A stretch of 64,000 nt of DNA from Actinomycetes bacterium (GCA_023129485.1 JAGMBY010000053.1:1214-65213); one strand, 5' to 3'. Shown: positions 40,424-63,710, numbered from the stretch's first letter. A program made the numbers and translations. Notes: generated by a model from the sequence alone, not told the origin.

Positions 40424-40443
40424 AACTCATTTTAAAATATTTA

Positions 40444-46380: not shown

Positions 46381-46449
46381 TAAAAAATATAGAATTGAAA
46401 AATATTGTAATTATTAAAATTTAGTTTTTTTAATTTCACTATTTTATAA

Positions 46450-47097: not shown

Positions 47098-47289
47098 AAT
47101 TATATTGCTTATTACCCCACATAAGTATATATATAAAATCATTAAATATAAAAAAAAGGAAATAAAGAGTAATTTAAATAGAAATTTAACGTTTTATTTT
47201 AGTAATAATCTTTAACATTTTGTTATTGTAACAACAATAAAATTTATTTAATTGACTTATAAAAAATAGTCTGATAGCATAAAGAAAAT

Positions 47290-48345: not shown

Positions 48346-48461
48346 TTAAATTTCTAAGATTAATTTTTTTAAATTTTTTGCAATTTTAAAATTAAATTCT
48401 AATTAAATTATAAAAATTTAAGATCAAATTCAATATTTTATAAGAATTATTATATTTAATA

Positions 48462-49169
48462 ATGGATTTATTTGTTGAAGGCATAAAACAAGCACTTTAT
48501 TTGCTTATTGAATTAAATAGAGAAATTTTTTCAATTGCTTGGCGTACTCTCTCAATAACAGGTCCTTCAGTGCTAATATCTTTACTTATAGGCATACCTT
48601 TGGGAGTAGTATTGGGACTTATGAAATTCCCTGGAAGAAAATTATTATTATCTCTCGTATATACTGGTATGGGATTTCCTCCCACAGTAATTGGATTATT
48701 TGTTGCAATGTTTCTTTGGAGAAGTGGACCTTTGGGTTTTCTATCCCTCTTATACACACCGACTGCAATGATCATAGCCCAAGTCATAATTGCCACTCCC
48801 ATAGTAATTGGTTTAATTCTTGCTGCAATGCAACAACTTGACCCTAAATTAAAACTTCAAGCTCTATCATTAGGTGCTAATAAACTGCAACTTTTTTGGA
48901 TATTGATTAAAGAAGCTAAAATTCCTTCATTAGCCGCAATTATGGCTGCGTTTGGTGGAATAATTTCTGAAGTGGGTTCAGCTATGATCGTAGGTGGGAA
49001 CATTAAAGGAAGAACTAGAATTCTAACCACTGCTATTGTTTTATTCACAAGAATGGGTAAATTTGAGAAAGCAATTGCAATATCAATAATACTTTTATTT
49101 TTATCTTTTCTTGCTAACTTTGCACTTACTTATATTCAACAAAGAGAGGGGATTTATTGGAAACGTTAA
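48462..49169 (+). CDS. tupB: ABC transporter permease (TupB-like)
   Basis: Six-TM ABC permease with EAA-like loop. Position between tupA and tupC. Confidence 0.8.
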   Translation: MDLFVEGIKQALYLLIELNREIFSIAWRTLSITGPSVLISLLIGIPLGVVLGLMKFPGRKLLLSLVYTGMGFPPTVIGLFVAMFLWRSGPLGFLSLLYTPTAMIIAQVIIATPIVIGLILAAMQQLDPKLKLQALSLGANKLQLFWILIKEAKIPSLAAIMAAFGGIISEVGSAMIVGGNIKGRTRILTTAIVLFTRMGKFEKAIAISIILLFLSFLANFALTYIQQREGIYWKR

Positions 49170-49266
49170 TATCTAATAGATATAAAAATAATATTGGAAT
49201 CAACAAAATTTAACATAGGGAGATTTTATTAGTAATGTTGATATTTAACAAAGTGGAGAAATAATA

Positions 49267-50355
49267 TTGGAAACATTATTAGAGGTAAAAAATCTGATAC
49301 ATAGATATAATCAAAAAGTAGTTTTAGATATTGAGGGATTTGAGTTGAGTAAAGGTGAAGTATTAGCATTAATTGGACCAAATGGAGCTGGTAAAAGTAC
49401 ATTTCTTAGAATCCTGAATCTTTTAGAAAAACCCACTCAAGGAATTGTTAATATTTTTGGAATTACACCAATCAATAATAGACAAAGACATAATCTTAGA
49501 AAGAAAATGGTTATGATATTTCAAGAACCCTTACTTTTTAAATCTACTGTTTATAATAATGTTTCATATGGTCTTAGAATGAGAAAAAAGAATAAAGATT
49601 TTATAAAGAATAAGGTTTTAGAAGCATTAGAAAAGTTTGGAATCTCTCATCTTATAAATAGACAGGCTGGAACACTTTCTGGAGGAGAGGCACAACGTGT
49701 TTCACTTGCAAGAGCATTGGTTTTAGAACCTGAAATTTTGTTATTGGATGAACCTTTCGCTGCATTAGATCAACCAACAAGGGAAGAGTTGAGAGACGAT
49801 TTATATAAAATAATCAGAAGAGAAAATCAAACAACATTACATGTGACCCATGATAGAAATGAGGCTTTGGTCATTTCTGACAATGTTGCTGTAATGAATG
49901 AAGGAGAGATTCTTCAGAGGGGAAGAACAGAGGATGTTTTTAATAAACCGATTGATGAATTTGTAGCAAATTTCTTAGGGGTGGAAACTATTCTATATGG
50001 AAAAATTACAAGTAAGAGCGATGGACTTTGTATAGTAAATATTAATAATCATAAGTTGGAAGTAGTATCTGATTTGGAGGTGGGTAAAAGAGTTATTACT
50101 TGTATTCGTCCTGAAAATGTAACACTTTTGAAATATTCATTAAAAGCGCCTCTTACAAGTGCAAGAAATTCATTTATCTCGACTATTAAAGATATTTCTT
50201 CCTACGGACTTGTTTATAGAGTTATTATGGATTGTGGTTTTAATTTGACATCATTCATAACAAAGGAATCCTTAGATAGATTAAATTTAAAGATTGGTGA
50301 AAAAATTATTGCAAATATAAAAGCAACTTCTATTCATCTATTATCACGAAAGTAA
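49267..50355 (+). CDS. tupC: ABC transporter ATP-binding protein with C-terminal TOBE/Mop domain (TupC/ModC-like)
   Basis: Walker A GPNGAGKST, signature LSGGE, Walker B LLLDEP and C-terminal transport-associated OB domain. TTG start after GGAGAAA. Confidence 0.85.
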   Translation: METLLEVKNLIHRYNQKVVLDIEGFELSKGEVLALIGPNGAGKSTFLRILNLLEKPTQGIVNIFGITPINNRQRHNLRKKMVMIFQEPLLFKSTVYNNVSYGLRMRKKNKDFIKNKVLEALEKFGISHLINRQAGTLSGGEAQRVSLARALVLEPEILLLDEPFAALDQPTREELRDDLYKIIRRENQTTLHVTHDRNEALVISDNVAVMNEGEILQRGRTEDVFNKPIDEFVANFLGVETILYGKITSKSDGLCIVNINNHKLEVVSDLEVGKRVITCIRPENVTLLKYSLKAPLTSARNSFISTIKDISSYGLVYRVIMDCGFNLTSFITKESLDRLNLKIGEKIIANIKATSIHLLSRK

Positions 50356-50375
50356 AATATTTAAATAAAGTCAAA

Positions 50376-51329
50376 ATGTTAGACAGGTTTGGTAGAAATA
50401 TTGAATATCTAAGAATCTCAGTAACTGACAGGTGCAATTTAAGATGTATTTATTGTATGCCTGAAGAGGGAATATCTCCAATTAGTCATGAACAAGTTCT
50501 CAGGTATGAAGAAATTGTAAAATTGGTAAAAATTGCTACAGAATTGGGAATAAATAAAATAAGAATCACTGGTGGTGAACCATTGGTGAGAAAAGAGTTA
50601 GTGAGTTTTATTGCACTATTAAGGGAAATTGATGAAATTGAGGACATATCTCTAACAACAAATGGAATATTTTTGGAAAGATATTTAGATAATCTAATAA
50701 GTGCAGGTTTAAATAGAATTAATATTAGTTTAGATTCATTAAATCCAAAAATTTACAAAAAAATAACTCGCAGAGATAATTTAGATGATGTAATTAGGGG
50801 ATTGAAAAAAGCAATTAAATCTTCAATTAGACCAATAAAGATAAATGTTGTATTAATGAAAAATTTAAATGATAATTTAAAGGATTTTGCTAAATTATCC
50901 ATCAAAGAACCTGTCCATGTAAGATTTATTGAATATATGCCCGTAATGGGTATAGAAAAAATAAGAGGGTTAACTGAAGAAGAAATGCTTGATGAGTTAA
51001 ATAAATATGGAGAATTAGAAAAAACCAAAAGTCCTTTTGGTCATGGGCCTGCAATATACTATAAATATAAAAATGCCAAAGGAACTATTGGTTTAATATG
51101 TTCTAATTCACATAATTTTTGTTATAAATGTAATAGATTAAGATTAACTTCTGATGGCAGACTTAAACCATGTCTTTTTGGTAAGGAAGAAGTAGATGTT
51201 AGAAGCTTATTAAGAACTAATGCTTCAAACAATGCTTTAAAAGAAGCTTTTAAAAATGCAATTTATCTTAAGCCAAGGGGTAGAAGTAAAAATAAAAGAA
51301 TTCATCATATGTATCAAATAGGAGGATAA
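50376..51329 (+). CDS. moaA: GTP 3-prime,8-cyclase MoaA
   Basis: Radical SAM CNLRCIYC at the N-terminus; C-terminal auxiliary-cluster cysteines (CSNSHNFCYKCNRLR). Confidence 0.9.
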   Translation: MLDRFGRNIEYLRISVTDRCNLRCIYCMPEEGISPISHEQVLRYEEIVKLVKIATELGINKIRITGGEPLVRKELVSFIALLREIDEIEDISLTTNGIFLERYLDNLISAGLNRINISLDSLNPKIYKKITRRDNLDDVIRGLKKAIKSSIRPIKINVVLMKNLNDNLKDFAKLSIKEPVHVRFIEYMPVMGIEKIRGLTEEEMLDELNKYGELEKTKSPFGHGPAIYYKYKNAKGTIGLICSNSHNFCYKCNRLRLTSDGRLKPCLFGKEEVDVRSLLRTNASNNALKEAFKNAIYLKPRGRSKNKRIHHMYQIGG

Positions 51330-51451
51330 TTAACCTAAGAGCAAGATTAAAAATATAATTAAAAAGGTATAAATTAAAAATATAAAGCAATACTCTAAAC
51401 TTTAAATCTCAATCCTCAATTTAGAGTAAAAAGAAATTTAAACTATTGAAG

Positions 51452-51508
51452 AGCTTTGGGTATACTTTCTTGACTGAAAATGTTTTCGAAAGTATACCGC
51501 AAAGCTAT
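51452..51508 (+). repeat. Intergenic palindrome repeat, copy E (core only)
   Basis: AGCTTTGGGTATACTTTCTTGACTGAAAATGTTTTCGAAAGTATACCGCAAAGCT. A bulged G replaces the bulged A, and TTGAC/GTT replaces TCGAC/GTC. Confidence 0.85.
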
Positions 51509-51560
51509 AAACCAAAATAGATTAAATTAAATAAAATGAAAGATAAAAAATGGAGGTTTT

Positions 51561-52091
51561 ATGAATAAAATAAACCATGTTGATTTTAAAGGTAAAGTAA
51601 AAATGGTAGATGTTTCTAAAAAGCCAATTACTTATAGAAAAGCTAAAGCACATGGCAAAATTTGGCTAAAAAAAGATACATTAGAGTTAATTAAGAATTT
51701 TGAAATAAAAAAGGGTGATGTTCTTTCAACTGCAAAGTTAGCTGGAATAATGGCTGCAAAAAGAACTCATGAACTAATTCCACTTTGCCATCCCTTATCG
51801 ATAACTAATATAGAAATTAAATTTGTTTTAGAAGAAAATGATAATAACAACAGCAATAATGATAATGAAAATGAAAATAATAATAGAATTTACAATATAA
51901 CTTGTATTTCAGAGGTCAAGTGTGATGGAAAAACTGGAGTTGAAATGGAAGCTATGATTTCTGTATCAATAGCACTTTTAACAATATATGATATGTGCAA
52001 AGCAGTTGATAGGGATATGAAAATTGGAGATATTATGTTAATTGAAAAGAGTGGAGGAAAAAGTGGATATTGGAAAAGAGAAAGGGATTAA
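51561..52091 (+). CDS. moaC: Cyclic pyranopterin monophosphate synthase MoaC
   Basis: MoaC core (KAHGKIWLK, GVEMEAMISVSIALLTIYDMCKA) with an N/D-rich low-complexity insertion. GGAGG RBS. Confidence 0.9.
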   Translation: MNKINHVDFKGKVKMVDVSKKPITYRKAKAHGKIWLKKDTLELIKNFEIKKGDVLSTAKLAGIMAAKRTHELIPLCHPLSITNIEIKFVLEENDNNNSNNDNENENNNRIYNITCISEVKCDGKTGVEMEAMISVSIALLTIYDMCKAVDRDMKIGDIMLIEKSGGKSGYWKRERD

Positions 52092-52133
52092 AAAAATTAA
52101 TTTTAATTTTATTATAATTATTCTTGACCAAAT

Positions 52134-52162
52134 AATTATATAGAGTTAAAATAAATAAAGGC
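52134..52162 (+). promoter_or_regulatory. Sigma-A-like promoter (TTGACC - 17 nt - TAAAAT) at the start of an ORF-free region
   Basis: Read directly from the sequence. Would drive a transcript ending at the terminator at 52677-52706. Confidence 0.4.
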
Positions 52163-52676
52163 TTGAAACAGATTAAGCTGTAAAAAATTAAAGCTTATAA
52201 TATAAATATAAGAAATAAAGATTGTGGTATAGATAATATATAAAATTTACAATTTAGTAGTTTTTAACATATAGTAAGCTCTAAATGTCATTTAGGGATT
52301 TGATATTCTAAAAATTTAATAAATTTTCCAAAATCTATTTATCACTTTCAGAATTATTTATAACAAATAATATTAGAATATTGAATATAAAAAAATAACA
52401 ATTATTGGAATTTTTATTATTTTTAGAATTAAAAAATTTTTTTAGATGAACTATTTAAAATGTAAAAATTTAATCAATAAATATAAAAAAATGAAGATAT
52501 TAAAAATTTAAAAGTATATATAATTTATATTTCTTTAATTTAAATATACCTTCATTTAGATTATTTTTATTTATTGTTTTTAATTAATAAATATTATCTA
52601 TAATATTAAAAAGTACTATAATCTTAAAAAGTAAAAATTATAATAAAGTATAAAAAATTAAATAGTAAATTGTTTC

Positions 52677-52706
52677 AAGCCGAGATTTACTCGGCTTTTT
52701 TATTAT
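52677..52706 (+). terminator. Rho-independent terminator (AAGCCGAG-ATTTA-CTCGGCTT followed by TTTTATTAT)
   Basis: 8-bp GC-containing stem plus T-run, + strand orientation. Sits 7 nt before a GGGGG RBS for rny. Confidence 0.75.
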
Positions 52707-52724
52707 CTGAAAGGGGGAATTAAA

Positions 52725-54272
52725 ATTAATAGATTACTAATTTATAACATAATAGCAGCAATCATAGGAGTTGTTTTAGGTTTAGTAGTTGGAGACTGGA
52801 TTAAAAAGTTCATATTTAAGGGTCGTAAAGAGAAAGCAGAAAAATCAGCAAAAGAAATAATTGAATCAGCAAAAAAAGAAGCAGATGCTATTAAAAAGGA
52901 AATGATGGTTGAAACGAAAGAAGAAGTTTATAAAATTCGAGTTATAGAAGAGGAAAAACTGAGAAGTCAGAAGAACGATTTGAGAAAATTAGAAGGTCGT
53001 CTAGCTCATAGAGAGAGCATTATTGATAAAAAATCAATTAAGTTGGACAAGAGAGAATATTTAGTTTCAAGAAAAGAAAAGGAAGTTAATTATCTTAAGG
53101 TAGAGTTAGAAAAGAATCTACAGGAACAAAGAAAAAAGTTAGAAAGTATTGCTGATTTATCTTCTACTGATGCTAAAGCACTTCTAATGAAGAGATTAGA
53201 AGAGGAAGCCAGGTTTGATAGCGCTAAAAAGATAAGGGAGATAGAAGAAAATGCGGGGGAAATAGCAGAAAGGAAAGCGAAGGAAATTATTTCAACAGCA
53301 ATTCAAAGATATGCTCATGACCATGTTGCAGAAGCCACAGTTTCTGTTGTCGATCTACCAAATGATGAAATGAAGGGGAGAATTATAGGAAGAGAAGGAA
53401 GAAATATCAGGGCATTTGAAAAATTGACTGGAGTGAACTTAATAGTGGATGATACACCTGAAGCAGTTATACTTTCATGCTTTAATCCAGTTAGGAGAGA
53501 AAAAGCAAGAATTGCATTGGAAGAATTGGTTGCTGACGGTAGAATTCATCCAGCTAAAATTGAGGAAAAATTTGATAAAGCAAATAGAATTGTTGATAAT
53601 CAAATAAAAATTGCAGGTGAAAAGGCAGTTTTTAATGTTGGTATAGCAGGTCTAAATAAAGATCTCATAAGAGTATTAGGAAGATTAAAATATAGAACAA
53701 GTTTTGGCCAAAATGTGCTTCAACATTCTATCGAAGTTGCTCATTTAGTAGGAATCATAGCTTCGGAGTTAGGAGTAAATGTTAAAAAAGCTAAAAGAGC
53801 CGGCTTGCTCCACGACATTGGAAAGGCTATTGATCATGAGGTGGAGGGTTCACACGCTTCAATTGGAGCTAATCTAGCAAAGAAATATAATGAATCTAGA
53901 GATATCGTTCACGCAATTCATGCACACCACGAAGAAATACAAGCACAAAACATTTTGGATGTTATAGTTTCAGCTGCAGATGCTGTTTCAAGTGCAAGGC
54001 CTGGTATAAGACAGGAAACTTTAGAGAGTTACATAAAAAGATTGGAAAATCTTGAGAGTATAGGCAAGGAATTTGATGGTGTTGAGAAGTGCTATGCAAT
54101 TCAAGCTGGAAGGGAAATTAGAGTAATGGTTTACCCAGATATGGTTGATGATGATCAAGCTGCAAGAATAGCTAGAGAATTGTCTAAAAAGATTGAGGAA
54201 GAACTAGAATATCCGGGTCAAATAAAGGTAACAGTGATTAGGGAAAAAAGAGCAATTGAATTTGCAAAATAA
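52725..54272 (+). CDS. rny: Ribonuclease Y (N-terminal TM helix, KH domain, HD domain)
   Basis: KH ([12 protein letters not shown]) and HD ([15 protein letters not shown]) domains. The ORF track starts at ATG 52902, but the same frame is open from 52644 and encodes the expected TM anchor [18 protein letters not shown] plus a coiled coil. No ATG/GTG/TTG is available, so initiation is inferred at an ATT or ATA near 52719-52749, after AAGGGGGAA. Confidence 0.8.
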
Positions 54273-54331
54273 AATTATATAATATATTCATTGTCTAATA
54301 ATTATGAAATAATTATAAAAGTATAGAAAAT

Positions 54332-54379
54332 CGCTCCTTAACAAGGAAGAGATGTTTATTCTCTTCCTTGTTTTTTATA
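54332..54379 (+). terminator. Rho-independent terminator after rny (CAAGGAAGAGA-loop-CTCTTCCTTG plus TTTTTTAT)
   Basis: Perfect 10-bp stem followed by a T-run. Confidence 0.8.
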
Positions 54380-54736
54380 AGTTATTATTGATTAAAAGTG
54401 AAGAATAAGTTAAAATTTAACTAAAAAGTATAACAGTATAGTTTAACTTAATAGTTATCAATTATAAAAATAAAGAGGAGATTTAGGCTTATTGTAGAAT
54501 ATAAATCATAAACATAAATTACTACTTGAAATCTTAAAAATTATAAGACTTTCGTAAAAAAATAAGTATTAAAATAAGGAACTTCTAAAATAAAACTTCA
54601 TTGTATATATATAGTAGAAATCATTAAATAATTAAAACAAAAAATATGAAGAATATTAAAATTAAAAAATATTTGACAGAATAAGAAACAAAAGAAAAAT
54701 AGAATTGTAGTAATAGTTACTACAGGAGGTAAAAAA

Positions 54737-55021
54737 ATGGCTGAACTTTTAAGAGTATCATCAAAGTCAAAGCCTAATTCAGTAGCAGGAGCCATAGCAG
54801 GGGTTTTAAGAGAAAGCGGTGCAGTAAAGATTCAAGTAATTGGAGCAGGTGCATTAAATCAAGCAATAAAAGCAATTGCAATTGCAAGAGGATATGTTGC
54901 TCCAAGTGGGATAAGTCTTGTTTGTATTCCATCATTTAAAGATGTAGTAATAAATGGAGAAGAAAGAACAGCAATTCTTCTTACAATTGAAGATATTAAT
55001 AAAGTAATCAGTTTACATTAA
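54737..55021 (+). CDS. spoVS: Stage V sporulation protein S family protein
   Basis: Matches the highly conserved SpoVS sequence (LRVSSKSKPNSVAGAIAGVLRE.G...IQ.IGAGALNQAIKAIAIARG). AGGAGG RBS. Confidence 0.9.
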   Translation: MAELLRVSSKSKPNSVAGAIAGVLRESGAVKIQVIGAGALNQAIKAIAIARGYVAPSGISLVCIPSFKDVVINGEERTAILLTIEDINKVISLH

Positions 55022-55693
55022 TAACAATTCTTCTTTACAATTGAAAATAGAATATAGTATAAAATTAAGAACTATATCAATAAGATAACAAGTCTTTTAA
55101 TTATGAATATCTAAAAAATAATTATTAGTATATTATTGTTACAAAATATTATTAAAGTAAAGAAGAATACTTTTTCTATAACCTCTCTTTGTTATTCCTT
55201 TTTCTTTTATTTATACATATCTTTATCACTATTCACCATAGTCAATTGAATTTATATATTTTACTGGAATTTTTTATTAAATCTTTTATTAAAATGATTA
55301 ATTGTTGAACTATTTACCCTTTTGATATTAGTAAGATTTGACTGGTACAGATTTCCATACTAAAATCTTTTCATAATAATTTATTAGATGGTTTTTTATA
55401 AATAAATAAAGCAACAAAGGAATAATTATCTCTATTAAGAAATCAAATGTTGAGTTTACATATCATATTATGAAGACTTTGAAAGTCTACGATGATGAAG
55501 TTTTAAGTGAATTCGTAGTTTTTTGGAATTGTCAAATAAAGTAGTATTATTAATAAAGGAATGTATATAAAAATATTAGTATTAAAGACTTTAAATTTAA
55601 AACTAATTGGATCAAGAAATAGTAATCAATTATTAATGAAAAAACTATAAAAACTTAATTTTATTAAATAAATTTTATTAAATAAAAGTAAAA

Positions 55694-56554
55694 ATGGGTG
55701 CAGATTTACATATTCATAGTAATGAGTCAGATGGCATTTTAAGTCCCTCTGAAATTGTTAAGATTGCAAAAAAACTTGGTTTAAGTGCAATATCAATTAC
55801 AGATCACGATACTATAAATGGATTAGATGAAGCTATCTCTACTTCCAAGAAAATTGGATTGGATTTTATTCCTGGAATAGAATTGAGTTCGGAAAGTGAG
55901 GATTGGGATATACATATTCTCGGATATTTTATAGACCACAATTCAAAAGAACTAAGAGAATATTTAAAAAATCTTCAAAATAAAAGGGAAATAAGAGCTA
56001 AAAAGATAGTAAATAATCTTAAAAATGCAGGTATAAAAATAGAGTTTGAGCAAGTAGCAAGAGAGAGCCATGGTGAATCAATAGGAAGACCTCATTTAGC
56101 AAGAACACTTGTTAAGCTTGGTTATGTTGATTCAGTTCAAAAGGCATTTCATGTTTTTTTAAAAAGAGATGGACCTTATTATGTAAAAAAATATACTATC
56201 TATCCAGATGAAGTGATTAAGATTTTATTAAAGGCAAATGCTGTTCCAGTTTTAGCACATCCACTTTCAAATAGTAATATTGATTTTATAGCCCCCTTAG
56301 TTAAAATAGGTTTAATGGGAATAGAAGTTTATTATCCTAGGTATAATCGATTTAAAATAAATAAATTAATAGAAATAGCTGATAGATACGGTCTTATAAA
56401 GACTGGTGGAACTGACTTTCATGGTAGTGATCCAAAAATAAATTCTAAGATTAGATATATAAATATTGGTGATATAACAGTTAATGATAAGGTAGTTAAA
56501 ATACTTTATAAAAAAGCTAAAGAATTAAGAAAATTTCAGAAGATTGAGGGGTAG
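55694..56554 (+). CDS. PHP-domain metal-dependent phosphoesterase (TrpH/YciV-like)
   Basis: N-terminal DLHIHSNESDG and ITDHDT motifs. Confidence 0.8.
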   Translation: MGADLHIHSNESDGILSPSEIVKIAKKLGLSAISITDHDTINGLDEAISTSKKIGLDFIPGIELSSESEDWDIHILGYFIDHNSKELREYLKNLQNKREIRAKKIVNNLKNAGIKIEFEQVARESHGESIGRPHLARTLVKLGYVDSVQKAFHVFLKRDGPYYVKKYTIYPDEVIKILLKANAVPVLAHPLSNSNIDFIAPLVKIGLMGIEVYYPRYNRFKINKLIEIADRYGLIKTGGTDFHGSDPKINSKIRYINIGDITVNDKVVKILYKKAKELRKFQKIEG

Positions 56555-56646
56555 AGAAAGTAAAAAATAAAACAAAATTTACTGCAAAGAATATAATATA
56601 AATTCCCATTTTTATTTATTAATTCTCCATTTATAAAAGTGTAAAA

Positions 56647-57963
56647 ATGAAAAAATTTTCAATAATTACCTTTGGTTGTCAGATGAATAAACATGATTCA
56701 GAAAAGATTGCTGGGATTCTTCAAGATAGCGGGTTTCAATATGAAAAAGATCTCTCAAATGCGGATATCATAATATTTAATACTTGTACAGTGAGAGAAA
56801 GTGCTGATGGTAGATTGTTTGGTCAATTAGGAAATATCAAAAGATTAAAAGAAGAAAAACCTGATTTAATAGTAGCAATTGGTGGTTGTTTAGCTCAAAG
56901 TTATGGCGGGAAATTGCTATTTCAATTTCCTCAGCTCGATATAGTTTTTGGAACACATAATATCAATAGGTTTTCATATCTTCTCAATGAAAGAATAAAA
57001 TCAGGAAATAAAGTTTTTGAATTAAAATCTGAAGATAATTATGATGTTTCTTGCTTGCCAACTTTGAGAGAAAAGCCCTTTTTAGCATGGGTTTCAATCA
57101 TGCGTGGGTGTAACAATTTCTGTTCATATTGTATAGTTCCATATGTTAGGGGTAAACAGTGGAGTAGATCAGCATATGAAATAATTGAAGAGGTTAAAAA
57201 TTTAACTTTAGACGGTGTTATAGAAATAACCTTACTTGGTCAAAATGTAAATTCATATGGAAAAGATTTAAATGATGAAATGAATTTTCCACAATTATTA
57301 GAAAAATTGAGTCAAATTTCTAAATTAAAGAGAATAAGATTTATAACATCTCATCCAAAAGATTTTGATAATGAGACAGTAAAAGTGGTTGCTGAATCTG
57401 AAATATTATGCAATCACTTCCACTTTCCATTACAATCGGGGTCTAATAAAGTTCTGCAAGACATGAACAGGAGATATACCAAGGAGCAATATTTGAAGTT
57501 AATTGATGAGATATATAGAATGATTCCAGATGCAAGTATCACAACTGATATTATAGTTGGTTTTCCTACAGAAACAGAGGAAGATTTCCTTGAGACATTG
57601 GATGTAGTGGAGAAAGCAAAATTTGATAGTGCTTTCACTTTCATTTATTCACCACGATCAGGAACTAAGGCAATTGGATTTAAAGACATTTCCTCTAATG
57701 AAGAAAAAATGAATCGTTTTAGTAGATTAGTTGATAAACAAACAAATATTAGTCAAATGAAAAATAATTATCTAATTGGTAAAAATCTTGATATTTTAGT
57801 TGAAGATTTCTCAAAAAAAGACAAAAAAATGCTTATGGGTAGAACGAAAACAAATAAGATTGTTAATTTTAAAGGTGATTCAAATTTAATTGGTAAAATA
57901 GTAAATGTTAAGATAATATTAGCAAAAGCTCATTATTTAATAGGTGAATTAAAAATTAATTAA
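56647..57963 (+). CDS. miaB: tRNA-2-methylthio-N6-dimethylallyladenosine synthase MiaB
   Basis: MTTase N domain with FGCQMNKHDSE, radical SAM CNNFCSYC and C-terminal TRAM domain. Confidence 0.85.
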   Translation: MKKFSIITFGCQMNKHDSEKIAGILQDSGFQYEKDLSNADIIIFNTCTVRESADGRLFGQLGNIKRLKEEKPDLIVAIGGCLAQSYGGKLLFQFPQLDIVFGTHNINRFSYLLNERIKSGNKVFELKSEDNYDVSCLPTLREKPFLAWVSIMRGCNNFCSYCIVPYVRGKQWSRSAYEIIEEVKNLTLDGVIEITLLGQNVNSYGKDLNDEMNFPQLLEKLSQISKLKRIRFITSHPKDFDNETVKVVAESEILCNHFHFPLQSGSNKVLQDMNRRYTKEQYLKLIDEIYRMIPDASITTDIIVGFPTETEEDFLETLDVVEKAKFDSAFTFIYSPRSGTKAIGFKDISSNEEKMNRFSRLVDKQTNISQMKNNYLIGKNLDILVEDFSKKDKKMLMGRTKTNKIVNFKGDSNLIGKIVNVKIILAKAHYLIGELKIN

Positions 57964-58142
57964 TATATAAATTGTAAATCAGATAACATATATGATTGAA
58001 TTATTATAAGAATATAAAAAGACAAATTTTGAGTTTATTGAAATATCTCTCGTTTTATGAGAGATAATTTTAAAAATAATATTTTATCTAACTCTTTTGT
58101 AATGTAAATAATTAGAATAAAATTATTCAATAAGGAGAATAA

Positions 58143-58964
58143 ATGTCCAGTATACCTTTAGGAATAATAGCTCCTCATCCTCCAATTATTATACCACCTA
58201 TTGGGGGAGAATATGAGCTAAAACAGGTAGAAAACACAATTAATTCTTTAAAGAGCTTAAAAGAAGATATAAAAAATATAGGTCCGGATTTATTAATTAT
58301 AATCTCACCCCATAGCCCAGCATTCAAAGATTCTTATGCAATTAAAAAAAGTCATATTTTAAGTGGAAGCTTATTAAATTTTGGATATCCGAAAATTTCA
58401 ATTGAGATGAAAAATGATACTGGATTTGTAGAATCCCTAGTTAATAATATGGAAAAAAAATCAATTAATGTAGTAAAAATGGATGAAAAGGAAGGACTTT
58501 TTTACAATCAAATTAAACTGGATCATGGAGTAATAGTTCCTCTTTATTATCTAGTTGATGAAAATAAATACAAATTAGTTAGTTTATCTATATCTTTTTT
58601 AGATTATAAAAATCATTATAAATTTGGAAAAGTAATTAAAGATACAGTTGAAGAAACTGGAAAAACTGCAGTTTTTATCGCTAGTGGTGATTTATCTCAT
58701 AGATTAAAACCTGGGGCACCAGCAGGATTTCACCCAAGAGGTGAAGAATTTGACAAAAAAATAGTTGAAATAATAAGTAGTTCAGATCTTGAAGAACTTT
58801 TCAAATTAGATAGTGGATTAATTGATGATGCAGGGGAGTGTGGTCTACGGTCAATATTTGTCTTAGCTGGTTGTTTTGATGGAAAAAATGTAGAAGCTAA
58901 AGTTCTATCATATGAAGGACCTTTTGGGGTAGGTTATATGGTAGCAGAAATTATACCTATATAA
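58143..58964 (+). CDS. Memo-like protein (LigB/Memo superfamily; AmmeMemoRadiSam system protein B type)
   Basis: Alignable to MEMO1 landmarks: IIAPHPP (IIAPHAGY), IISPHSP (ILGPSH), ASGDLSHRL (SSDFCHWG), ECGLRSIFVLAG (ICGRHPIGVLL). Confidence 0.65.
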   Translation: MSSIPLGIIAPHPPIIIPPIGGEYELKQVENTINSLKSLKEDIKNIGPDLLIIISPHSPAFKDSYAIKKSHILSGSLLNFGYPKISIEMKNDTGFVESLVNNMEKKSINVVKMDEKEGLFYNQIKLDHGVIVPLYYLVDENKYKLVSLSISFLDYKNHYKFGKVIKDTVEETGKTAVFIASGDLSHRLKPGAPAGFHPRGEEFDKKIVEIISSSDLEELFKLDSGLIDDAGECGLRSIFVLAGCFDGKNVEAKVLSYEGPFGVGYMVAEIIPI

Positions 58965-59018
58965 TGAATAATAAGTAGTATTTTAAAAATAATTTTTATA
59001 ATTATAAAAAAGGAAAAA

Positions 59019-59525
59019 ATGGATAAATATGTTGAACTTGCTAGAAAAACAGTTGAAAAATATATAAGAGAAAGCAAAATTTTATCAAATGAGGAGATTC
59101 CCGAAGAATTAACTAAAGAAAAAGCAGGTGTTTTCGTTTCTATAAAAAAGAAAGGTGAACTAAGAGGTTGTATTGGAACAATTTATCCTACAAAGAATAA
59201 TATAGGTGAAGAGATTATAACTAATGCAATTTCATCTTCCACAAGAGATCCTCGCTTTTCTCCAGTTAGAAAAAAAGAATTGGAATTTTTGACTTATAGT
59301 GTTGATGTTTTAAGCAATCCGGAAAAAATAGAAAATATATCACAACTTGATCCCAAGAAATATGGAGTTATAGTTGAATCAGGTTATAGAAAAGGATTAT
59401 TACTTCCGGATCTTGAAGGAGTGGATACACCTGAAATTCAGGTGGATATTGCAAAAAGAAAAGCTGGTATATTCCCTGGTGAGGATTTTGAAATGTATCG
59501 CTTCATAGTTACTCGACATAAATAA
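59019..59525 (+). CDS. AMMECR1 domain protein (AmmeMemoRadiSam system protein A type)
   Basis: AMMECR1 motif LRGCIGT and C-terminal GLLLP. 168 aa. Confidence 0.8.
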   Translation: MDKYVELARKTVEKYIRESKILSNEEIPEELTKEKAGVFVSIKKKGELRGCIGTIYPTKNNIGEEIITNAISSSTRDPRFSPVRKKELEFLTYSVDVLSNPEKIENISQLDPKKYGVIVESGYRKGLLLPDLEGVDTPEIQVDIAKRKAGIFPGEDFEMYRFIVTRHK

Positions 59526-59672
59526 GCTTTTATTGTTAATTTTAATTTCTTTATATAGTAATTTACATATCATCAAAAAGCTATTTCAGTGATTAAGAGA
59601 TTCTTGTAAAATTTTTATAAAATCCATAATAAGATTCAAATTTTTTAAAATTTCTATTATTGGATAATAAAA

Positions 59673-60614
59673 ATGGTTAAAAAGAATAAAAAAAATAAGT
59701 TAATTGCACTTGTTGGACCTACAGGTATTGGAAAGACAAGAGTATCTATTGAACTTACGAAGATTATAAATGCAGAAATAGTATCTGCTGATTCTATGCA
59801 AATATATATTGGAATGGATATTGGTACTTCAAAGCCGTCAATTAACCAAAGAAAGGAAGTCCCTCATCATATGATAGATATTTGTAACCCTGATCATATA
59901 ATGACTGTTGCTGAATTCCAGGGATTAGCAAGAAGATGTATTGCTGATATTTCAAATAGGGGTAGGACACCATTTTTAGTTGGTGGTTCTGGGTTATATA
60001 TTAGAGCAGTAATTGATGATTTAAATTTTGCTAAGAATATAATCAGTGAAGTGGAAAAAATAAAATTAAGAAAGAGAGTAAAAGAAGAGGGCTCAGAATC
60101 CTTATATAATGAATTGATTAAAATAGACGAAGAATATGCTAAAAAAATTAGTTCCAGGGATGTAAAAAGAATAATAAGAGCTTTGGAGGTATATTATGTT
60201 TCTGGAACAAAATTCTCGTCTTTTCAAAAGAAATGGGATGAGAGAAAGTCTATTTATGATTTAACTATAATTGGGTTAAATAAGGACAGAAATGAACTCT
60301 ATAATAATATTGAAAAAAGAGTAGATGATATGATTGATTTAGGGCTCTTTGACGAGGTTAAAGAATTAATGGAAAAAGGATATAGTGAAAGCTTAGCCCT
60401 AAAACAAGCAATAGGTTATCAAGAGATACTGTCTTTTTATGATGGTAAATTGAGCAGGAAAGAAGCTATAGATCTTATAAAGAAAAACACAAGAAATTTC
60501 GCCAAAAGACAATTAACATGGTTAAGAGCTGATCCAAGAGTAAAATGGGTTTTTATAAATAAAGATGAAAAATCTGATAATATAATTAAAAGAATAATCA
60601 ATATTATTTTTTAA
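59673..60614 (+). CDS. miaA: tRNA dimethylallyltransferase MiaA
   Basis: P-loop GPTGIGKT plus the DSMQIY and LVGGSGLY motifs. Confidence 0.9.
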   Translation: MVKKNKKNKLIALVGPTGIGKTRVSIELTKIINAEIVSADSMQIYIGMDIGTSKPSINQRKEVPHHMIDICNPDHIMTVAEFQGLARRCIADISNRGRTPFLVGGSGLYIRAVIDDLNFAKNIISEVEKIKLRKRVKEEGSESLYNELIKIDEEYAKKISSRDVKRIIRALEVYYVSGTKFSSFQKKWDERKSIYDLTIIGLNKDRNELYNNIEKRVDDMIDLGLFDEVKELMEKGYSESLALKQAIGYQEILSFYDGKLSRKEAIDLIKKNTRNFAKRQLTWLRADPRVKWVFINKDEKSDNIIKRIINIIF

Positions 60615-60808
60615 ATAATTAACACTATCTTTTTAATAATTGATATTATGTTTTGAAATAATAATCATTTAATTCTAAGTAGTGTAAATTTTTTTTATGT
60701 AATTTAAAATAATTTAGAATGGATTTTTTTAAATAATAAGAATAATAATTGTATAAATAATTGAAAAACAGATAGTAAATGCAATAATTTTTATAAGAGG
60801 TGTAAAAA

Positions 60809-61675
60809 TTGAAGTTTATAAAGATGCATGCATTAGGAAATGATTATATTATTTTTAATTCATTATTTGAAGTAAATGACGTCCCACCACATCTTATAAA
60901 AAATGTTTGTGAAAGACATTATGGAATTGGGGCAGATGGGGTAATTATTTTACTTCCATCTGATAAAACAAAATTTAAAGCAACTATATATAATTCTGAT
61001 GGTTCAGAAGCAGAAATTAGTGGTAATGGCATTAGATGTTTAGGTAGATACATTTATGATTTAGGAATTTTAAGAAAGAAAAATTTCTCAATAGAAACCT
61101 TGGCTGGAGTAAAAGAAATAACAATTACTGAAAACAAAGGTTTAGTTGATAAAATTAGCGTTAATATGGGTAAACCAGAATTCAAAAGGGAAAAGATTCC
61201 CATGAAAGGGAAGATGGGAGATCCTCTAAATGAAGAAATTATAGTTGGTGAGAATCAGAAGATATTGGCATCATGTCTTTCTATCGGCAATCCACATTGT
61301 GTAATATGGGTAGATGACATAAAAAAAGCCCCAGTTAAGATATTAGGTTTTAAACTGGAGAGACATGAAATTTTTCCAAATAATACAAATGTTGAATTTG
61401 TAAAAGTAAAAAATAAAAATGAGATTTTTGTTAGAACTTGGGAGAGAGGAGTAGGTGAAACCGAATCATGCGGAACAGGAGCTTGCGCAGCAGTTGTTGT
61501 ATCGGTTTTAAAAAATAAAACAAAAAGAAAAGTAAATGTTTCTCTTTTAGGTGGAAATTTAGAAGTATTGTGGAGAGAGAAAGATGAAAATATTATTTTA
61601 ACTGGTAAAGTTGATTACGTTTACAAGGGAAGGCTTTCTGATAGTTGGCTCCTATCTCAATATGAAAGAGATTAA
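60809..61675 (+). CDS. dapF: Diaminopimelate epimerase
   Basis: Motifs MHALGNDYIIF and NSDGSEAEISGNGIRC, with the second catalytic Cys in ESCGTGACA. TTG start. Confidence 0.9.
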   Translation: MKFIKMHALGNDYIIFNSLFEVNDVPPHLIKNVCERHYGIGADGVIILLPSDKTKFKATIYNSDGSEAEISGNGIRCLGRYIYDLGILRKKNFSIETLAGVKEITITENKGLVDKISVNMGKPEFKREKIPMKGKMGDPLNEEIIVGENQKILASCLSIGNPHCVIWVDDIKKAPVKILGFKLERHEIFPNNTNVEFVKVKNKNEIFVRTWERGVGETESCGTGACAAVVVSVLKNKTKRKVNVSLLGGNLEVLWREKDENIILTGKVDYVYKGRLSDSWLLSQYERD

Positions 61676-61830
61676 ATTAGATTAGATTAGATTAGGTAAA
61701 ATATATTAGATAAATTAATATTTTTATAAAAGCCAAGATAAAAATTTAATAAGGAGTAAGATTAAAAATTAAAAATTCAATTGAAAAAAATAAAAAGATA
61801 GTCATAGAACCTCAGGAAAAAGCTATTTTA

Positions 61831-63072
61831 GTGGGAATAAAACTTCCTTATCAGACACTAGATCAAGTTAAAGAATCACTAAAGGAACTTGCTAATTTAG
61901 CACTCACATCAGGTGCAGAAGTATTAGGTGAATTAGTACAGATAAGAAATAGATACGATTCAAGATATCTTATAGGTCTTGGTAAAGTTGAAGAATTAGC
62001 AGAAACAGTTAATGTACTAAATGCAAATATGGTTATTTTTGATGATGAGCTTACATCCTCTCAACAGGATAAATTAAATAGGAAAATTGGAGTTAAGGTA
62101 ATAGATAGAACAGCTTTAATTTTAGATATATTTAGTCAACATGCTAATAGTTATGAGGGTAAACTACAGGTTGAGTTAGCACAATTAAATTATTTACTAC
62201 CTAGACTTAAAGGTAGAGGAATAGAGATGTCAAGATTAGGAGGAGGGATAGGAACAAGGGGGCCTGGTGAAACAAAATTAGAATATGATAGAAGAAGAAT
62301 GCAAAAAAGAATAAATTCATTAAAAAAAGAAATAAATAATTTAAAAGTTCATAGAGAAGTACAAAGGCATGGAAGGAAAAGAAAAAAAATTCCGTTAGTT
62401 TCATTGGTTGGATATACAAATTCAGGAAAATCAACACTTTTAAATCTTTTATGTAATGCTAATGTTGAAGTTAATAATAAATTATTCGTGACTTTGGACA
62501 CAATAATCAGAAGAAGAGAATTAGAAGGGGGAAGAGTAATATTGTTTTCTGATACTGTTGGCTTTATAAGAAAATTACCCCATCAAATTGTGGCTTCCTT
62601 TAGATCTACACTTGAAGAGGTTAAACAAGCTGATATATTACTTCATATAATTGATTCTAATCATCCTAATATGGAGGAACAAATAGAAACAGTTAACAAA
62701 GTTTTAGAGGAAATTGGTGCAAAAAATAATAATATTCTCATGGTATTTAACAAAATTGACCTTCTTGAAAGATTAGAACTAAATAGACTAAAGCGTAAAT
62801 ATCCAGAAGGTGTATTTATATCTGCATTAAAAGGTGATGGAATAAATAATTTATTTAACGGGATAATAGAAATTATTGATAGAAATACTGTCGAAATAAT
62901 TGTATCAATCCCTTACAAAAACTCAAACATTATTTCTTATCTTCATGAATTAGGAGAAGTGAAAGAAGAAAAATATCTTGAAGACTCTATTAAGGTAAAA
63001 GTGCTTATCCCAAAACATAGCTTACAAAAAATTGAATCTCTCAGTATTGATAAAATAATAGTAGCAAATTAA
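61831..63072 (+). CDS. hflX: GTPase HflX
   Basis: HflX N domain, G1 GYTNSGKST, G3 DTVGF, G4 NKID. The frame is open upstream to 61753 right after AAGGAG, so the real start may be a non-canonical codon before the GTG at 61831. Confidence 0.85.
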   Translation: MGIKLPYQTLDQVKESLKELANLALTSGAEVLGELVQIRNRYDSRYLIGLGKVEELAETVNVLNANMVIFDDELTSSQQDKLNRKIGVKVIDRTALILDIFSQHANSYEGKLQVELAQLNYLLPRLKGRGIEMSRLGGGIGTRGPGETKLEYDRRRMQKRINSLKKEINNLKVHREVQRHGRKRKKIPLVSLVGYTNSGKSTLLNLLCNANVEVNNKLFVTLDTIIRRRELEGGRVILFSDTVGFIRKLPHQIVASFRSTLEEVKQADILLHIIDSNHPNMEEQIETVNKVLEEIGAKNNNILMVFNKIDLLERLELNRLKRKYPEGVFISALKGDGINNLFNGIIEIIDRNTVEIIVSIPYKNSNIISYLHELGEVKEEKYLEDSIKVKVLIPKHSLQKIESLSIDKIIVAN

Positions 63073-63086
63073 ATTAGATGATTTAA

Positions 63087-63710
63087 TTATATTCTTCGTA
63101 TTAATGCAATAACCTTACCTAAGATTTTAACTTCGGTTAGAATTATTGGTTCCATAAAGTCATTTTCTGGTTGTAGTCGCACTTTTCCATCCTCTTTGAA
63201 GAATCTTTTCACAGTAGCTTCATCTTCTAACAATGCGATTACAATATCTCCATTCTCAGCCATGCTTTGTCTTTTTGCTATCAATAAATCATCAGGTTTA
63301 ATTGCAGCATTTATCATGCTTTCACCTTTTACTTTTAGCATGAAGACATCTTTAGAACCAACAAAATCGATTGGAAGTGGGAAATATTCAGTAATATTTT
63401 GTTCAGCTAAAAGTGGTGTTCCAGCTGCAATTTTTCCTACAATTGGAACCGGAAAAAAATTCTTCCTTAAAATTCCTCTATATTTCTTAGAGGGATAGGT
63501 TATTTCAATTGCTCTTGGTTTAAAAGGATCTCTTCTTATATAATCTTTCTCTTTTAATTTATCTAAATGACTCTGAACCGTTGCGGGTGATCTAAGTCCC
63601 ATAGCTTTACCTATTTCCCTAACTGATGGGGGATAACCATTTCTTATAGTAAATTTCTCAATAAAATTCAAAATTTGCTTTTGTCTTTTTGTAAGTCTTT
63701 CCTCAATCAT
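63087..63710 (-). CDS. lexA: LexA repressor (SOS regulator, S24 peptidase)
   Basis: N-terminal winged HTH (LTKRQKQILNFI, PSVREIG), autocleavage and Ser-Lys dyad region (GESM...AKRQ). AAGGAG RBS 7 nt before the ATG. Confidence 0.95.
   Translation of the reverse strand: MIEERLTKRQKQILNFIEKFTIRNGYPPSVREIGKAMGLRSPATVQSHLDKLKEKDYIRRDPFKPRAIEITYPSKKYRGILRKNFFPVPIVGKIAAGTPLLAEQNITEYFPLPIDFVGSKDVFMLKVKGESMINAAIKPDDLLIAKRQSMAENGDIVIALLEDEATVKRFFKEDGKVRLQPENDFMEPIILTEVKILGKVIALIRRI

What the first reader, a model, noticed from the sequence alone, without database searches (positions are those of the whole stretch)
56647..60614. Memo-like plus AMMECR1 pair, without the third AmmeMemoRadiSam partner, sandwiched between miaB and miaA
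AMMECR1 (RGCIG motif) and a Memo/LigB-superfamily protein are adjacent and co-oriented, as in the AmmeMemoRadiSam systems (established knowledge: TIGRFAMs defines a three-gene system A/B/radical SAM of unknown function). Here the dedicated PFL-activase-like radical SAM partner is missing. Instead the pair is flanked directly by the two enzymes that sequentially modify tRNA A37: miaB (a radical SAM methylthiotransferase) upstream and miaA downstream. That context hints that the Memo/AMMECR1 pair may act on tRNA or in the ms2i6A pathway, or use MiaB-type chemistry.
Basis: partly seen in the sequence, partly recalled or inferred. Interest (0 to 1): 0.55.

Follow-up and report, generated by a model that had tools for sequence, protein, structure and literature searches.

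The report
LigB–AMMECR1 pair in miaB–miaA block
The four genes are real and the two middle ones form a genuine enzyme pair of unknown function, but they most likely sit between the two tRNA-modification genes because this bacterial group inherited that gene order, not because they work with them.

Summary
MiaB (56647-57963), a LigB-type protein (58143-58964), AMMECR1 (59019-59525) and MiaA (59673-60614) are adjacent and co-oriented, and the 64-kb window holds no TIGR04337 radical SAM gene.

The middle pair is a true functional unit. AMMECR1 follows the LigB-type gene in 76 of 78 informative related loci, and the two are fused in most of them. The "Memo-like" protein is really a class III extradiol-dioxygenase (LigB) type.

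In Bacillota, Chloroflexota and Patescibacteria, 65 of 67 informative loci carry a canonical TIGR04337 radical SAM next to the pair, and miaA or miaB is nearby only once.

The miaB–pair–miaA arrangement without an adjacent radical SAM is confined to one monophyletic clade. That clade is basal Actinomycetota, to which the window belongs as a relative of Ca. Humimicrobiia. There it lies inside a rigid recA–rny–spoVS–PHP–miaB–[pair]–miaA–dapF–hflX–lexA block.

In Rothia, miaB and miaA are direct neighbours in the same block without the pair. The sandwich therefore counts as one evolutionary event, best explained by inherited gene order.

I could not test whether the radical SAM partner lies elsewhere in these genomes or was lost. 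A tRNA-A37 role is not excluded but has no independent support.

The parts
56647..57963 (+). miaB, the tRNA ms2i6A37 methylthiotransferase. It is a flanking gene and belongs to the conserved housekeeping block.
   Evidence: TIGR01574 at 506.3 bits (cutoff 355.3), aligned over 3-435 of the 437-position model. Carries UPF0004, Radical_SAM and TRAM domains and the motif CNNFCSYC.
58039..58072 (+). Possible weak hairpin in the 179-bp gap between miaB and the LigB-type gene. It could be a terminator; this is inference only.
   Evidence: A centroid hairpin of about 15 pairs appears in the fold. The whole gap is not more structured than shuffled sequence (z = -0.5), and the terminator scan did not list it.
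58143..58964 (+). LigB-type (class III extradiol-dioxygenase fold) 'B' protein of an AmmeMemoRadiSam-type module.
   Evidence: PF02900 at 144.6 bits; TIGR04336 at 32.2 bits against a cutoff of 26. The AlphaFold model has pLDDT 94. Its TM-score is 0.82-0.83 to TK2203 (5hee) and HpaD (8iq8), against 0.57-0.66 to MEMO1. H12, H57, D127, H128, D183, H186, E232 and C233 are invariant. An AAGGAG ribosome-binding site lies upstream.
59019..59525 (+). AMMECR1, the 'A' protein of the module.
   Evidence: PF01871 at 162.6 bits; TIGR04335 at 135.2 bits against a cutoff of 99. RGCIG (C51) and DPRF are conserved, and 42 positions are at least 90% conserved in both context groups. The closest solved structures are MM0484 (1zq7) and PH0010 (1vaj).
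59673..60614 (+). miaA, the tRNA A37 dimethylallyltransferase. It is a flanking gene and belongs to the conserved housekeeping block.
   Evidence: TIGR00174 at 307.5 bits (cutoff 148.65); IPPT PF01715 at 281.9 bits.
45367..63710 (.). The surrounding synteny block, conserved across basal Actinomycetota: recA … tungstate ABC transporter/moaA/moaC, rny, spoVS, PHP, [miaB–pair–miaA], dapF, hflX, lexA(-).
   Evidence: Searches give the identities. Searches show the same order in related loci whose GC content ranges from 29% to 72%.

Best explanation
Shown: the two middle genes encode the A (AMMECR1) and B (LigB-type Fe(II)-enzyme fold) components of an AmmeMemoRadiSam-type module. They are an obligate functional pair and are fused into one polypeptide in most other genomes.

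Inferred: the LigB-type domain supplies a 2-His-1-carboxylate metal centre with the catalytic histidines. AMMECR1 supplies the conserved cysteine cleft (RGCIG/DPRF). Together they carry out one step on an unidentified substrate. The standing literature prediction is an RNA base modification, normally done together with a PFL-activase-like radical SAM enzyme (TIGR04337).

In this organism, a low-GC basal actinomycete related to Ca. Humimicrobiia, the pair occupies a fixed slot between miaB and miaA. That slot lies inside a vertically inherited housekeeping block: recA–rny–spoVS–PHP–miaB–[pair]–miaA–dapF–hflX–lexA. The flanking by miaB and miaA reflects this ancestral gene order, not shared chemistry. 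MiaB is an ordinary MiaB and is not a stand-in for the missing radical SAM.

The dedicated radical SAM partner is either encoded elsewhere in the genome or was lost once in this clade. I lean slightly towards 'elsewhere', because both proteins keep every conserved motif of the radical-SAM-linked versions. I could not test this.
For: - The pair is a unit. AMMECR1 lies immediately downstream in 76 of 80 loci, and 2 of the other 4 are cut by a contig end. At least 55 of 67 non-actinomycete loci carry a fusion, and fusions occur in Actinomycetota too.
- Canonical third partner elsewhere. 65 of 67 informative non-actinomycete loci carry a roughly 330-aa GCNxxCxFCQNW radical SAM next to the pair. 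Four tested examples score 303-345 bits on TIGR04337 against a cutoff of 220.
- Local absence in the clade. None of about 17 distinct actinomycete loci has it within 8-10 kb.
- Single origin. All loci with the miaB/miaA context form one clade in the LigB tree.
- Taxonomy. Members of the window protein's 90% cluster are labelled Actinomycetia or Actinomycetes, and the neighbouring 74%-identical cluster includes a Ca. Humimicrobiia MAG.
- Whole-block synteny is kept in loci from 29% to 72% GC.
- When the block breaks, the pair stays with miaA in some lineages (L001, L086) and with miaB in another (L083). There is no consistent partner.
- miaA–dapF spacing (0-38 bp) is as tight as pair–miaA spacing.
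- A Rothia insert reads RecA–RecX–x–MiaB–MiaA–DapF–x–HflX without the pair (PMC8656073).
- There is no functional divergence between the context groups. 38 LigB and 42 AMMECR1 positions are at least 90% conserved in both, with three minor group-specific positions in LigB and none in AMMECR1.
- MiaB is full-length and canonical.
Against: - The arrangement persists across a very deep clade, and in several genomes the pair overlaps or abuts miaB or miaA. In L083 the fusion starts 13 nt before the miaB stop. In L089 the fusion's 3' end overlaps the miaA start by 8 nt. In L081 the gap is 12 nt. This is compatible with co-translation and could reflect selection.
- Exactly the clade that lacks an adjacent dedicated radical SAM has a radical SAM enzyme (MiaB) in the upstream slot. 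In the sister clade (Dehalococcoidia and Patescibacteria) TIGR04337 holds that slot.
- I never showed that a TIGR04337 gene exists elsewhere in any of these genomes.
- The substrate and reaction of the module are unknown, so the mechanistic part is inference from motifs and literature.
Confidence: 0.68

Rival explanations
1. One reading: the pair is functionally integrated with MiaA and MiaB. In this reading the LigB–AMMECR1 module acts on tRNA A37, for example by further modifying the isopentenyl or methylthio-isopentenyl adenine. Alternatively it uses MiaB as its radical-generating partner in place of the dedicated TIGR04337 enzyme.
For: - The pair is conserved immediately next to miaB and/or miaA across a deep clade, sometimes with overlapping reading frames.
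- The dedicated radical SAM is locally absent exactly where MiaB is the upstream neighbour, and TIGR04337 occupies that upstream slot in the sister clade.
- AMMECR1 was independently predicted to catalyse an RNA base modification (PMC2034487; PMC4075521).
- From my own recollection of its abstract, Burroughs et al. 2019 (JBC 294:10211) link the Memo clade to 'nucleotide base and aliphatic isoprenoid modification'. The paper was not held here.
Against: - There is one evolutionary event only, since the clade is monophyletic.
- Only 1 of 70 non-actinomycete loci has miaB within 10 kb.
- miaB and miaA are neighbours without the pair in Rothia.
- dapF, hflX, PHP and spoVS are conserved in the same block just as rigidly.
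- When the block breaks, there is no consistent partner.
- MiaB shows no extra domain or divergence.
- The pair shows no sequence shift relative to TIGR04337-linked versions.
- Established knowledge, not tested here: AMMECR1 is near-universal in Archaea, which lack MiaA and i6A37.
Confidence: 0.1
2. A two-component variant that does not need a radical SAM. The clade lost TIGR04337 altogether, and the LigB–AMMECR1 module works alone, as Memo and AMMECR1 must in eukaryotes. Its substrate is the same unknown one and is unrelated to MiaA or MiaB.
For: - No TIGR04337 lies within 8-10 kb in any of about 17 actinomycete loci, whereas 65 of 67 informative loci elsewhere have it adjacent.
- Two non-actinomycete loci (L031, L035) also lack it locally.
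- Own knowledge, not tested here: eukaryotes keep Memo and AMMECR1 without a TIGR04337 homologue.
Against: - Every conserved residue of the radical-SAM-linked versions is retained, and AMMECR1 has no group-specific substitutions. That argues for unchanged chemistry and partners.
- Local absence says nothing about the rest of the genome. The three genes are known to be dispersed in many genomes (TIGRFAMs system definition by co-occurrence; own knowledge).
Confidence: 0.3
3. The LigB-type protein is an ordinary aromatic ring-cleaving extradiol dioxygenase for catabolism, and AMMECR1 is an unrelated neighbour.
For: - The best Pfam, PDB and fold matches are extradiol dioxygenases such as HpaD, aminophenol dioxygenase and LigB.
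- The metal-ligand and catalytic His/Glu positions are conserved.
Against: - It scores far below every dioxygenase equivalog cutoff; for example HpaD scores 47 bits against a cutoff of 316.
- It is fused to AMMECR1 in most genomes.
- No aromatic-catabolism genes lie nearby in any locus.
- The hosts are largely strict anaerobes, and the module is paired with an oxygen-sensitive radical SAM enzyme.
Confidence: 0.03

Closest known systems
AmmeMemoRadiSam three-gene system (TIGR04335 A, TIGR04336 B, TIGR04337 radical SAM)
   Same: The A and B components are present, adjacent, co-oriented and above the curated cutoffs. Close homologues in Bacillota, Chloroflexota and Patescibacteria sit next to bona fide TIGR04337 genes. 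NCBI already names the identical protein 'AmmeMemoRadiSam system protein B'.
   Different: No TIGR04337 gene occurs in the 64-kb window or within 8-10 kb in any relative from the same clade. The B protein is LigB-type and matches the TIGR04336 model only over its C-terminal half.
LigB–AMMECR1 fusion proteins (about 450-470 aa, annotated 'AmmeMemoRadiSam system protein A')
   Same: The same two domains in the same order, at 44-51% identity to the window's LigB part. Some lie in the identical miaB–[fusion]–miaA–dapF context.
   Different: Here the two domains are separate genes with a 54-bp spacer.
Class III extradiol dioxygenases (LigAB, HpaD, 2-aminophenol 1,6-dioxygenase beta) and the uncharacterised TK2203 protein (PDB 5hee)
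   Same: The fold matches at TM 0.75-0.83. The His/His/Glu metal-site and catalytic His positions are conserved.
   Different: Sequence identity is only 13-23%. There is no catabolic gene context. The protein has an invariant GECG cysteine and an SYEGPFGVGY C-terminus, and it is obligately coupled to AMMECR1.
MEMO1 / Memo family (PF01875)
   Same: Same superfamily, and the same association with AMMECR1 and the radical SAM in other prokaryotes.
   Different: The sequence match is weak and partial (32 bits), and the structural match is poorer (TM 0.57-0.66) than to LigB-type enzymes.
Housekeeping 'superoperons' that contain miaA with functionally unrelated genes, e.g. E. coli mutL–miaA–hfq–hflX (own knowledge) and the actinobacterial recA…miaB–miaA–dapF…hflX block (PMC8656073)
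   Same: miaA and miaB are embedded with unrelated genes (dapF, hflX, lexA) in a rigid, vertically inherited order.
   Different: Basal Actinomycetota carry the LigB–AMMECR1 module as an extra resident between miaB and miaA.

Membership tests
AmmeMemoRadiSam system | A protein: an AMMECR1 domain scoring above the TIGR04335 cutoff, with the RGChG and DxR[aromatic] motifs | tested here: met
   135.2 bits against a cutoff of 99. LRGCIG and DPRF are present and conserved in both context groups.
AmmeMemoRadiSam system | B protein: a Memo/LigB-superfamily protein above the TIGR04336 cutoff, adjacent to or fused with A | tested here: met
   32.2 bits against a cutoff of 26, covering residues 130-258 only. 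It is adjacent here and in 76 of 80 loci, and fused in most. It passes only marginally because it is LigB-type.
AmmeMemoRadiSam system | A dedicated PFL-activase-like radical SAM enzyme (TIGR04337) in the same genome | tested here: inconclusive
   Absent from the 64-kb window and from all related actinomycete loci. The rest of the genome cannot be searched with these tools. A profile search of the protein database returned only non-actinomycete hits in its top 120, which is uninformative.
Class III extradiol dioxygenase (LigB, PF02900) | LigB fold with 2-His-1-carboxylate metal ligands and catalytic histidines | tested here: met
   PF02900 at 144.6 bits over residues 8-267. The model has pLDDT 94 and TM 0.75-0.83 to solved members. 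H12, H57, H128, H186 and E232 are invariant. Assigning these to the LigB ligand positions rests on the HpaD alignment and on established LigAB numbering.
Class III extradiol dioxygenase (LigB, PF02900) | O2-dependent aromatic ring-cleavage activity, or membership of a characterised equivalog | tested here: not met
   All dioxygenase equivalogs score far below their cutoffs: HpaD 47 against 316, gallate dioxygenase 25 against 412. Enzymatic activity is not testable here.
Memo family (PF01875) | Full-length match to the Memo model and closest fold to MEMO1 | tested here: not met
   32.4 bits over residues 127-258 only. No Memo chain appears in the PDB sequence search. MEMO1 ranks 33rd or lower in the fold search, with TM 0.57-0.66.
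MiaB (TIGR01574) | UPF0004, radical SAM and TRAM architecture, an equivalog-level score and a CxxxCxxC motif | tested here: met
   506.3 bits against a cutoff of 355.3, covering 1-436 of 437 model positions. All three Pfam domains are found, along with CNNFCSYC.
MiaA (TIGR00174) | IPP-transferase domain at an equivalog-level score | tested here: met
   307.5 bits against a cutoff of 148.65; PF01715 at 281.9 bits.
A functional miaB–pair–miaA pathway cluster | The association recurs in phylogenetically independent lineages | tested here: not met
   All occurrences fall in one monophyletic clade. Only 1 of 70 loci outside it has miaB within 10 kb. miaB–miaA adjacency exists without the pair in Rothia.

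The most novel reading that the evidence does not exclude
In basal Actinomycetota the LigB–AMMECR1 module may have given up its dedicated radical SAM enzyme and been recruited into the miaB–miaA operon. There it would act on tRNA A37, for example through an anaerobic further modification of (ms2)i6A, possibly drawing on MiaB's radical chemistry. This would give the first concrete substrate for the AMMECR1 and Memo/LigB-type module.
Probability: 0.1. Interest if true: 0.75.

Novelty: new member of a known kind. Interest (0 to 1): 0.3.

Why it matters
AMMECR1 and Memo/LigB-type proteins are conserved in all three domains of life. AMMECR1 is linked to a human X-linked syndrome, and neither protein has a known reaction.

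A clade in which the module lacks an adjacent radical SAM and is locked next to two A37 tRNA-modification genes would be a cheap place to test the 2007 prediction of an RNA base modification. As it stands, the comparative evidence says the adjacency is inherited gene order.

The practical value is therefore narrower:
- It cautions against reading function from this neighbourhood.
- It shows that the LigB-type B protein, not only Memo, is the usual partner of AMMECR1 and TIGR04337 in Bacillota, Chloroflexota and Patescibacteria.
- It defines a clean natural contrast between radical-SAM-adjacent and non-adjacent versions for follow-up.

Tried and rejected
- TIGR04337 in the window. A CxxxCxxC scan, NCBIfam searches and tblastn with five TIGR04337 proteins found none. 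tblastn also found no remnant of such a gene in the miaB–LigB gap.
- Actinomycete TIGR04337 proteins. I searched the 5.8-billion-protein database with a 30-sequence profile. The top 120 hits were all Bacillota or other groups, so the result is uninformative.
- Regulatory RNA or leaders. The Rfam E-value scan of 54-64 kb found nothing. Folding showed the intergenic regions are not more structured than shuffles. The promoter and terminator scan was not above the shuffle background.
- Burroughs et al. 2019 (JBC; PMC6664185), the most relevant paper, is not held. Searches for other functional work on AMMECR1 with a radical SAM returned only the 2007 and 2020 Aravind-lab papers.
- MiaB as a surrogate partner. 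I rejected this as the leading idea because MiaB is canonical, full length and occupies the same slot in Rothia without the pair.
- A catabolic dioxygenase role. I rejected this because of the fusions with AMMECR1, the sub-cutoff equivalog scores and the absence of catabolic neighbours.


Full report
**What is there**

The window is a 28%-GC stretch with almost all genes on the + strand. At the stated coordinates lie four co-oriented ORFs.

- MiaB, 56647-57963: TIGR01574 at 506 bits against a cutoff of 355, aligned end to end, with UPF0004, radical SAM and TRAM domains.
- A 273-aa LigB-superfamily protein, 58143-58964.
- A 168-aa AMMECR1, 59019-59525: TIGR04335 at 135 bits against a cutoff of 99, with the LRGCIG and DPRF motifs.
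- MiaA, 59673-60614: TIGR00174 at 307 bits against a cutoff of 149.

The gaps between them are 179, 54 and 147 bp. The window holds no TIGR04337-type radical SAM. The only CxxxCxxC ORFs are RimO, MoaA, MiaB and a PA0069/Rv2578c-like gene on the minus strand. A tblastn search with five bona fide TIGR04337 proteins finds nothing.

**The "Memo-like" protein is LigB-type**

- Pfam LigB scores 144.6 bits over the whole protein. Memo scores 32.4 bits over the C-terminal half only.
- A profile of 28 homologues hits TK2203 (5hee), HpaD, aminophenol dioxygenase beta, DOPA dioxygenases and LigB in the PDB, but no Memo chain.
- An AlphaFold model (pLDDT 94) superposes on those enzymes at TM 0.75-0.83 and on MEMO1 at only 0.57-0.66.
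- H12, H57, D127/H128, D183/H186 and E232 are invariant. E232 aligns with the Glu of the 'GEGG' motif in HpaD. By established LigAB numbering (own knowledge), the set corresponds to the 2-His-1-carboxylate site plus the catalytic histidines.
- It is nevertheless not a catabolic dioxygenase equivalog: HpaD scores 47 bits against a cutoff of 316.
- It does pass the TIGR04336 'system protein B' cutoff (32 against 26). NCBI names a member of the same 90% cluster 'AmmeMemoRadiSam system protein B'.

**The pair is a real functional unit**

A database search finds thousands of homologues, many of them 450-470-aa LigB+AMMECR1 fusions. I scanned one genome per GTDB species and kept 80 loci.

- AMMECR1 lies immediately downstream of the LigB-type gene in 76 loci. 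Two of the remaining four are cut by a contig end.
- At least 55 of 67 non-actinomycete loci are in-frame fusions.

**The third partner**

In 65 of the 70 non-actinomycete loci, a roughly 330-aa radical SAM with the GCNxxCxFCQNW signature lies in the locus, usually adjacent. Three of the five exceptions are contig ends. Four tested examples score 303-345 bits on TIGR04337 against a cutoff of 220. So LigB-type B, AMMECR1 and TIGR04337 make up the canonical three-gene system in Bacillota, Chloroflexota, Patescibacteria and others.

None of the ten loci with miaA or miaB next to the pair has such a gene. The same holds for seven further distinct loci fetched through protein look-ups.

**Where the miaB/miaA context occurs**

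The complete order rny–spoVS–PHP–miaB–LigB–AMMECR1–miaA–dapF–(aminotransferase)–hflX–lexA, often preceded by recA–recX, recurs in loci labelled Actinomycetota. These include Ca. Subteraquimicrobium, Coriobacteriia, Ca. Aquicultor, Ca. Solincola, Ca. Hakubella and relatives of Ca. Humimicrobiia. Their GC content ranges from 29% to 72%.

Proteins in the same 90% cluster as the window's are labelled Actinomycetia or Actinomycetes. The 74%-identical cluster includes a Ca. Humimicrobiia MAG. A neighbour-joining tree of the LigB-type proteins puts every one of these loci, and the window, in a single clade sister to Dehalococcoidia and Patescibacteria. The association therefore counts as one evolutionary event.

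Outside this clade, only one locus of 70 has miaB within 10 kb. It is a Parcubacteria locus with miaB 8 kb away, which is about the chance expectation.

**Why the sandwich is best read as inherited gene order**

- miaB and miaA are neighbours in this block without the pair. A sequenced Rothia insert reads RecA, RecX, hemin-binding protein, MiaB (5883-7397), MiaA (7474-8403), DapF, methyltransferase, HflX (PMC8656073, Table 2). From my own knowledge, M. tuberculosis (Rv2737c recA … Rv2733c miaB … Rv2727c miaA, Rv2726c dapF, Rv2725c hflX, Rv2720 lexA) and Streptomyces have the same layout.
- Genes with unrelated functions (dapF, hflX, PHP, spoVS, rny) are conserved in the block just as rigidly. 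miaA–dapF spacing (0-38 bp) is as tight as pair–miaA spacing.
- Where the block is broken, the pair stays with miaA–dapF but not miaB in L001 and L086. It stays with miaB but not miaA in L083. In Hakubella a YlbF-family gene separates it from miaB. There is no consistent partner.
- MiaB has no extra domain or divergence.
- The pair shows no sequence shift relative to TIGR04337-linked versions. 38 LigB and 42 AMMECR1 positions are at least 90% conserved in both groups. There are three minor group-specific positions in LigB and none in AMMECR1.
- In the window itself the pair is separated from both neighbours by 147-179-bp AT-rich spacers, and there is a possible weak hairpin after miaB. No Rfam element or significant structure is present.

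**What argues the other way**

- The context is old and stable. In several genomes the reading frames overlap or abut: in L083 miaB and the fusion overlap by 13 nt, in L089 the fusion and miaA overlap by 8 nt, and in L081 the gap is 12 nt.
- The clade without an adjacent dedicated radical SAM is exactly the one where MiaB, itself a radical SAM enzyme, sits in the upstream slot. In the sister clade TIGR04337 holds that slot.
- AMMECR1 was predicted in 2007 to catalyse an RNA base modification. That prediction rested on its cysteine cleft, its resemblance to Tyw3p, and its neighbourhood and fusions with a radical SAM and a ring-opening dioxygenase (PMC2034487; see also PMC4075521).
- As I recall its abstract, Burroughs et al. 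2019 link the Memo clade to 'nucleotide base and aliphatic isoprenoid modification'. I could not read it here.

These points keep the tRNA-A37 idea alive at roughly 10%, but none of them is independent evidence.

**How it most likely works**

- Shown: the pair is an obligate two-domain module with intact predicted active sites.
- Inferred: the LigB-type Fe(II) centre and the AMMECR1 cysteine act together on one substrate. The substrate is unknown, and an RNA base is the leading literature guess.
- Normally the module works with a PFL-activase-like radical SAM.
- In this clade that partner is either unlinked or lost. The unchanged conservation pattern makes me lean slightly to 'unlinked', but this is the main untested point.

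**Novelty and verdict**

The genes are already recognised by curated models and are named as such in public annotation. The LigB–AMMECR1 association and fusions, and the RNA-modification hypothesis, were published in 2007.

What is new here is modest. Basal Actinomycetota carry the module in a fixed miaB–[pair]–miaA slot without an adjacent TIGR04337 gene. This is a context variant of single origin. I rate it a new member of a known kind, with interest about 0.3. The decisive test is a simple TIGR04337 search of the complete MAGs, followed by tRNA nucleoside profiling.

Noticed in passing
window 19212-19326 (+): An FMN riboswitch (RF00050, 116.9 bits against a gathering score of 66.2) lies directly upstream of the ORF at 19366-20634.
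   Followed up: no
window 47298-47438 (+), then ORFs 47464-52091: A molybdenum/tungsten cofactor riboswitch (RF01055, 77.9 bits against 36) sits immediately upstream of several genes. These are a TupA-like tungstate-binding protein, a WtpC-like ABC ATPase, MoaA and a probable MoaC (MoaC by analogy with L081). The transporter matches are below their equivalog cutoffs. The whole looks like a single riboswitch-controlled tungstate-uptake and Moco operon.
   Followed up: partly
window 39611-41547 (-): This is the only sizeable minus-strand island in the window. It holds a 270-aa radical SAM protein resembling the PA0069, Rv2578c and 'mobile pair protein B' families (all below cutoff) and a 367-aa Fe-S protein. 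GC skew turns negative here, at -0.16.
   Followed up: no
L024, L041, L060 (Dehalococcoidia); L021, L064, L070, L078 (Patescibacteria-like): In the sister clade of the actinomycete LigB proteins, the TIGR04337 gene lies upstream of the LigB-type gene. That is the slot MiaB holds in Actinomycetota. In Bacillota it lies downstream of the fusion.
   Followed up: partly
L030 (labelled Deltaproteobacteria) and L064 (labelled Gammaproteobacteria): Their LigB-type proteins nest inside the Actinomycetota and the Patescibacteria clades respectively. L030 also has MiaB directly upstream. The taxonomic labels of these MAG contigs are probably binning errors.
   Followed up: no
L084 4986-5327 (Ca. Hakubella thermalkaliphila): A Com_YlbF-family gene is inserted between miaB and the LigB-type gene. 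From my own knowledge, YlbF/YmcA proteins partner RNase Y, and ymcA neighbours miaB (ymcB) in B. subtilis. This miaB–YlbF-family adjacency may therefore be an older conserved link than the one under study.
   Followed up: no
window 58143-58964, residues 231-234 and 256-265: The family has an invariant GECG motif. E232 lies at the LigB-type metal-ligand position, and the next residue, C233, is also invariant. The family also has an invariant C-terminal SYEGPFGVGY motif. Both are conserved in the radical-SAM-adjacent and the actinomycete groups alike. Whether C233 corresponds to the metal-binding Cys244 of MEMO1 was not tested.
   Followed up: no
Bacillota loci, e.g. L004 1763-5953 and L035 4804-7780: In about 8-10 Bacillota loci the three-gene system follows what looks like the ecfA–ecfT–truA–rplM–rpsI block. 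I identified these genes by eye from their N-terminal sequences and did not check them with HMMs. In about 6-8 loci it precedes arginine-biosynthesis-like genes, and a 247-aa membrane-anchored protein lies upstream in 19 loci. This is another example of the module residing in housekeeping synteny blocks.
   Followed up: no
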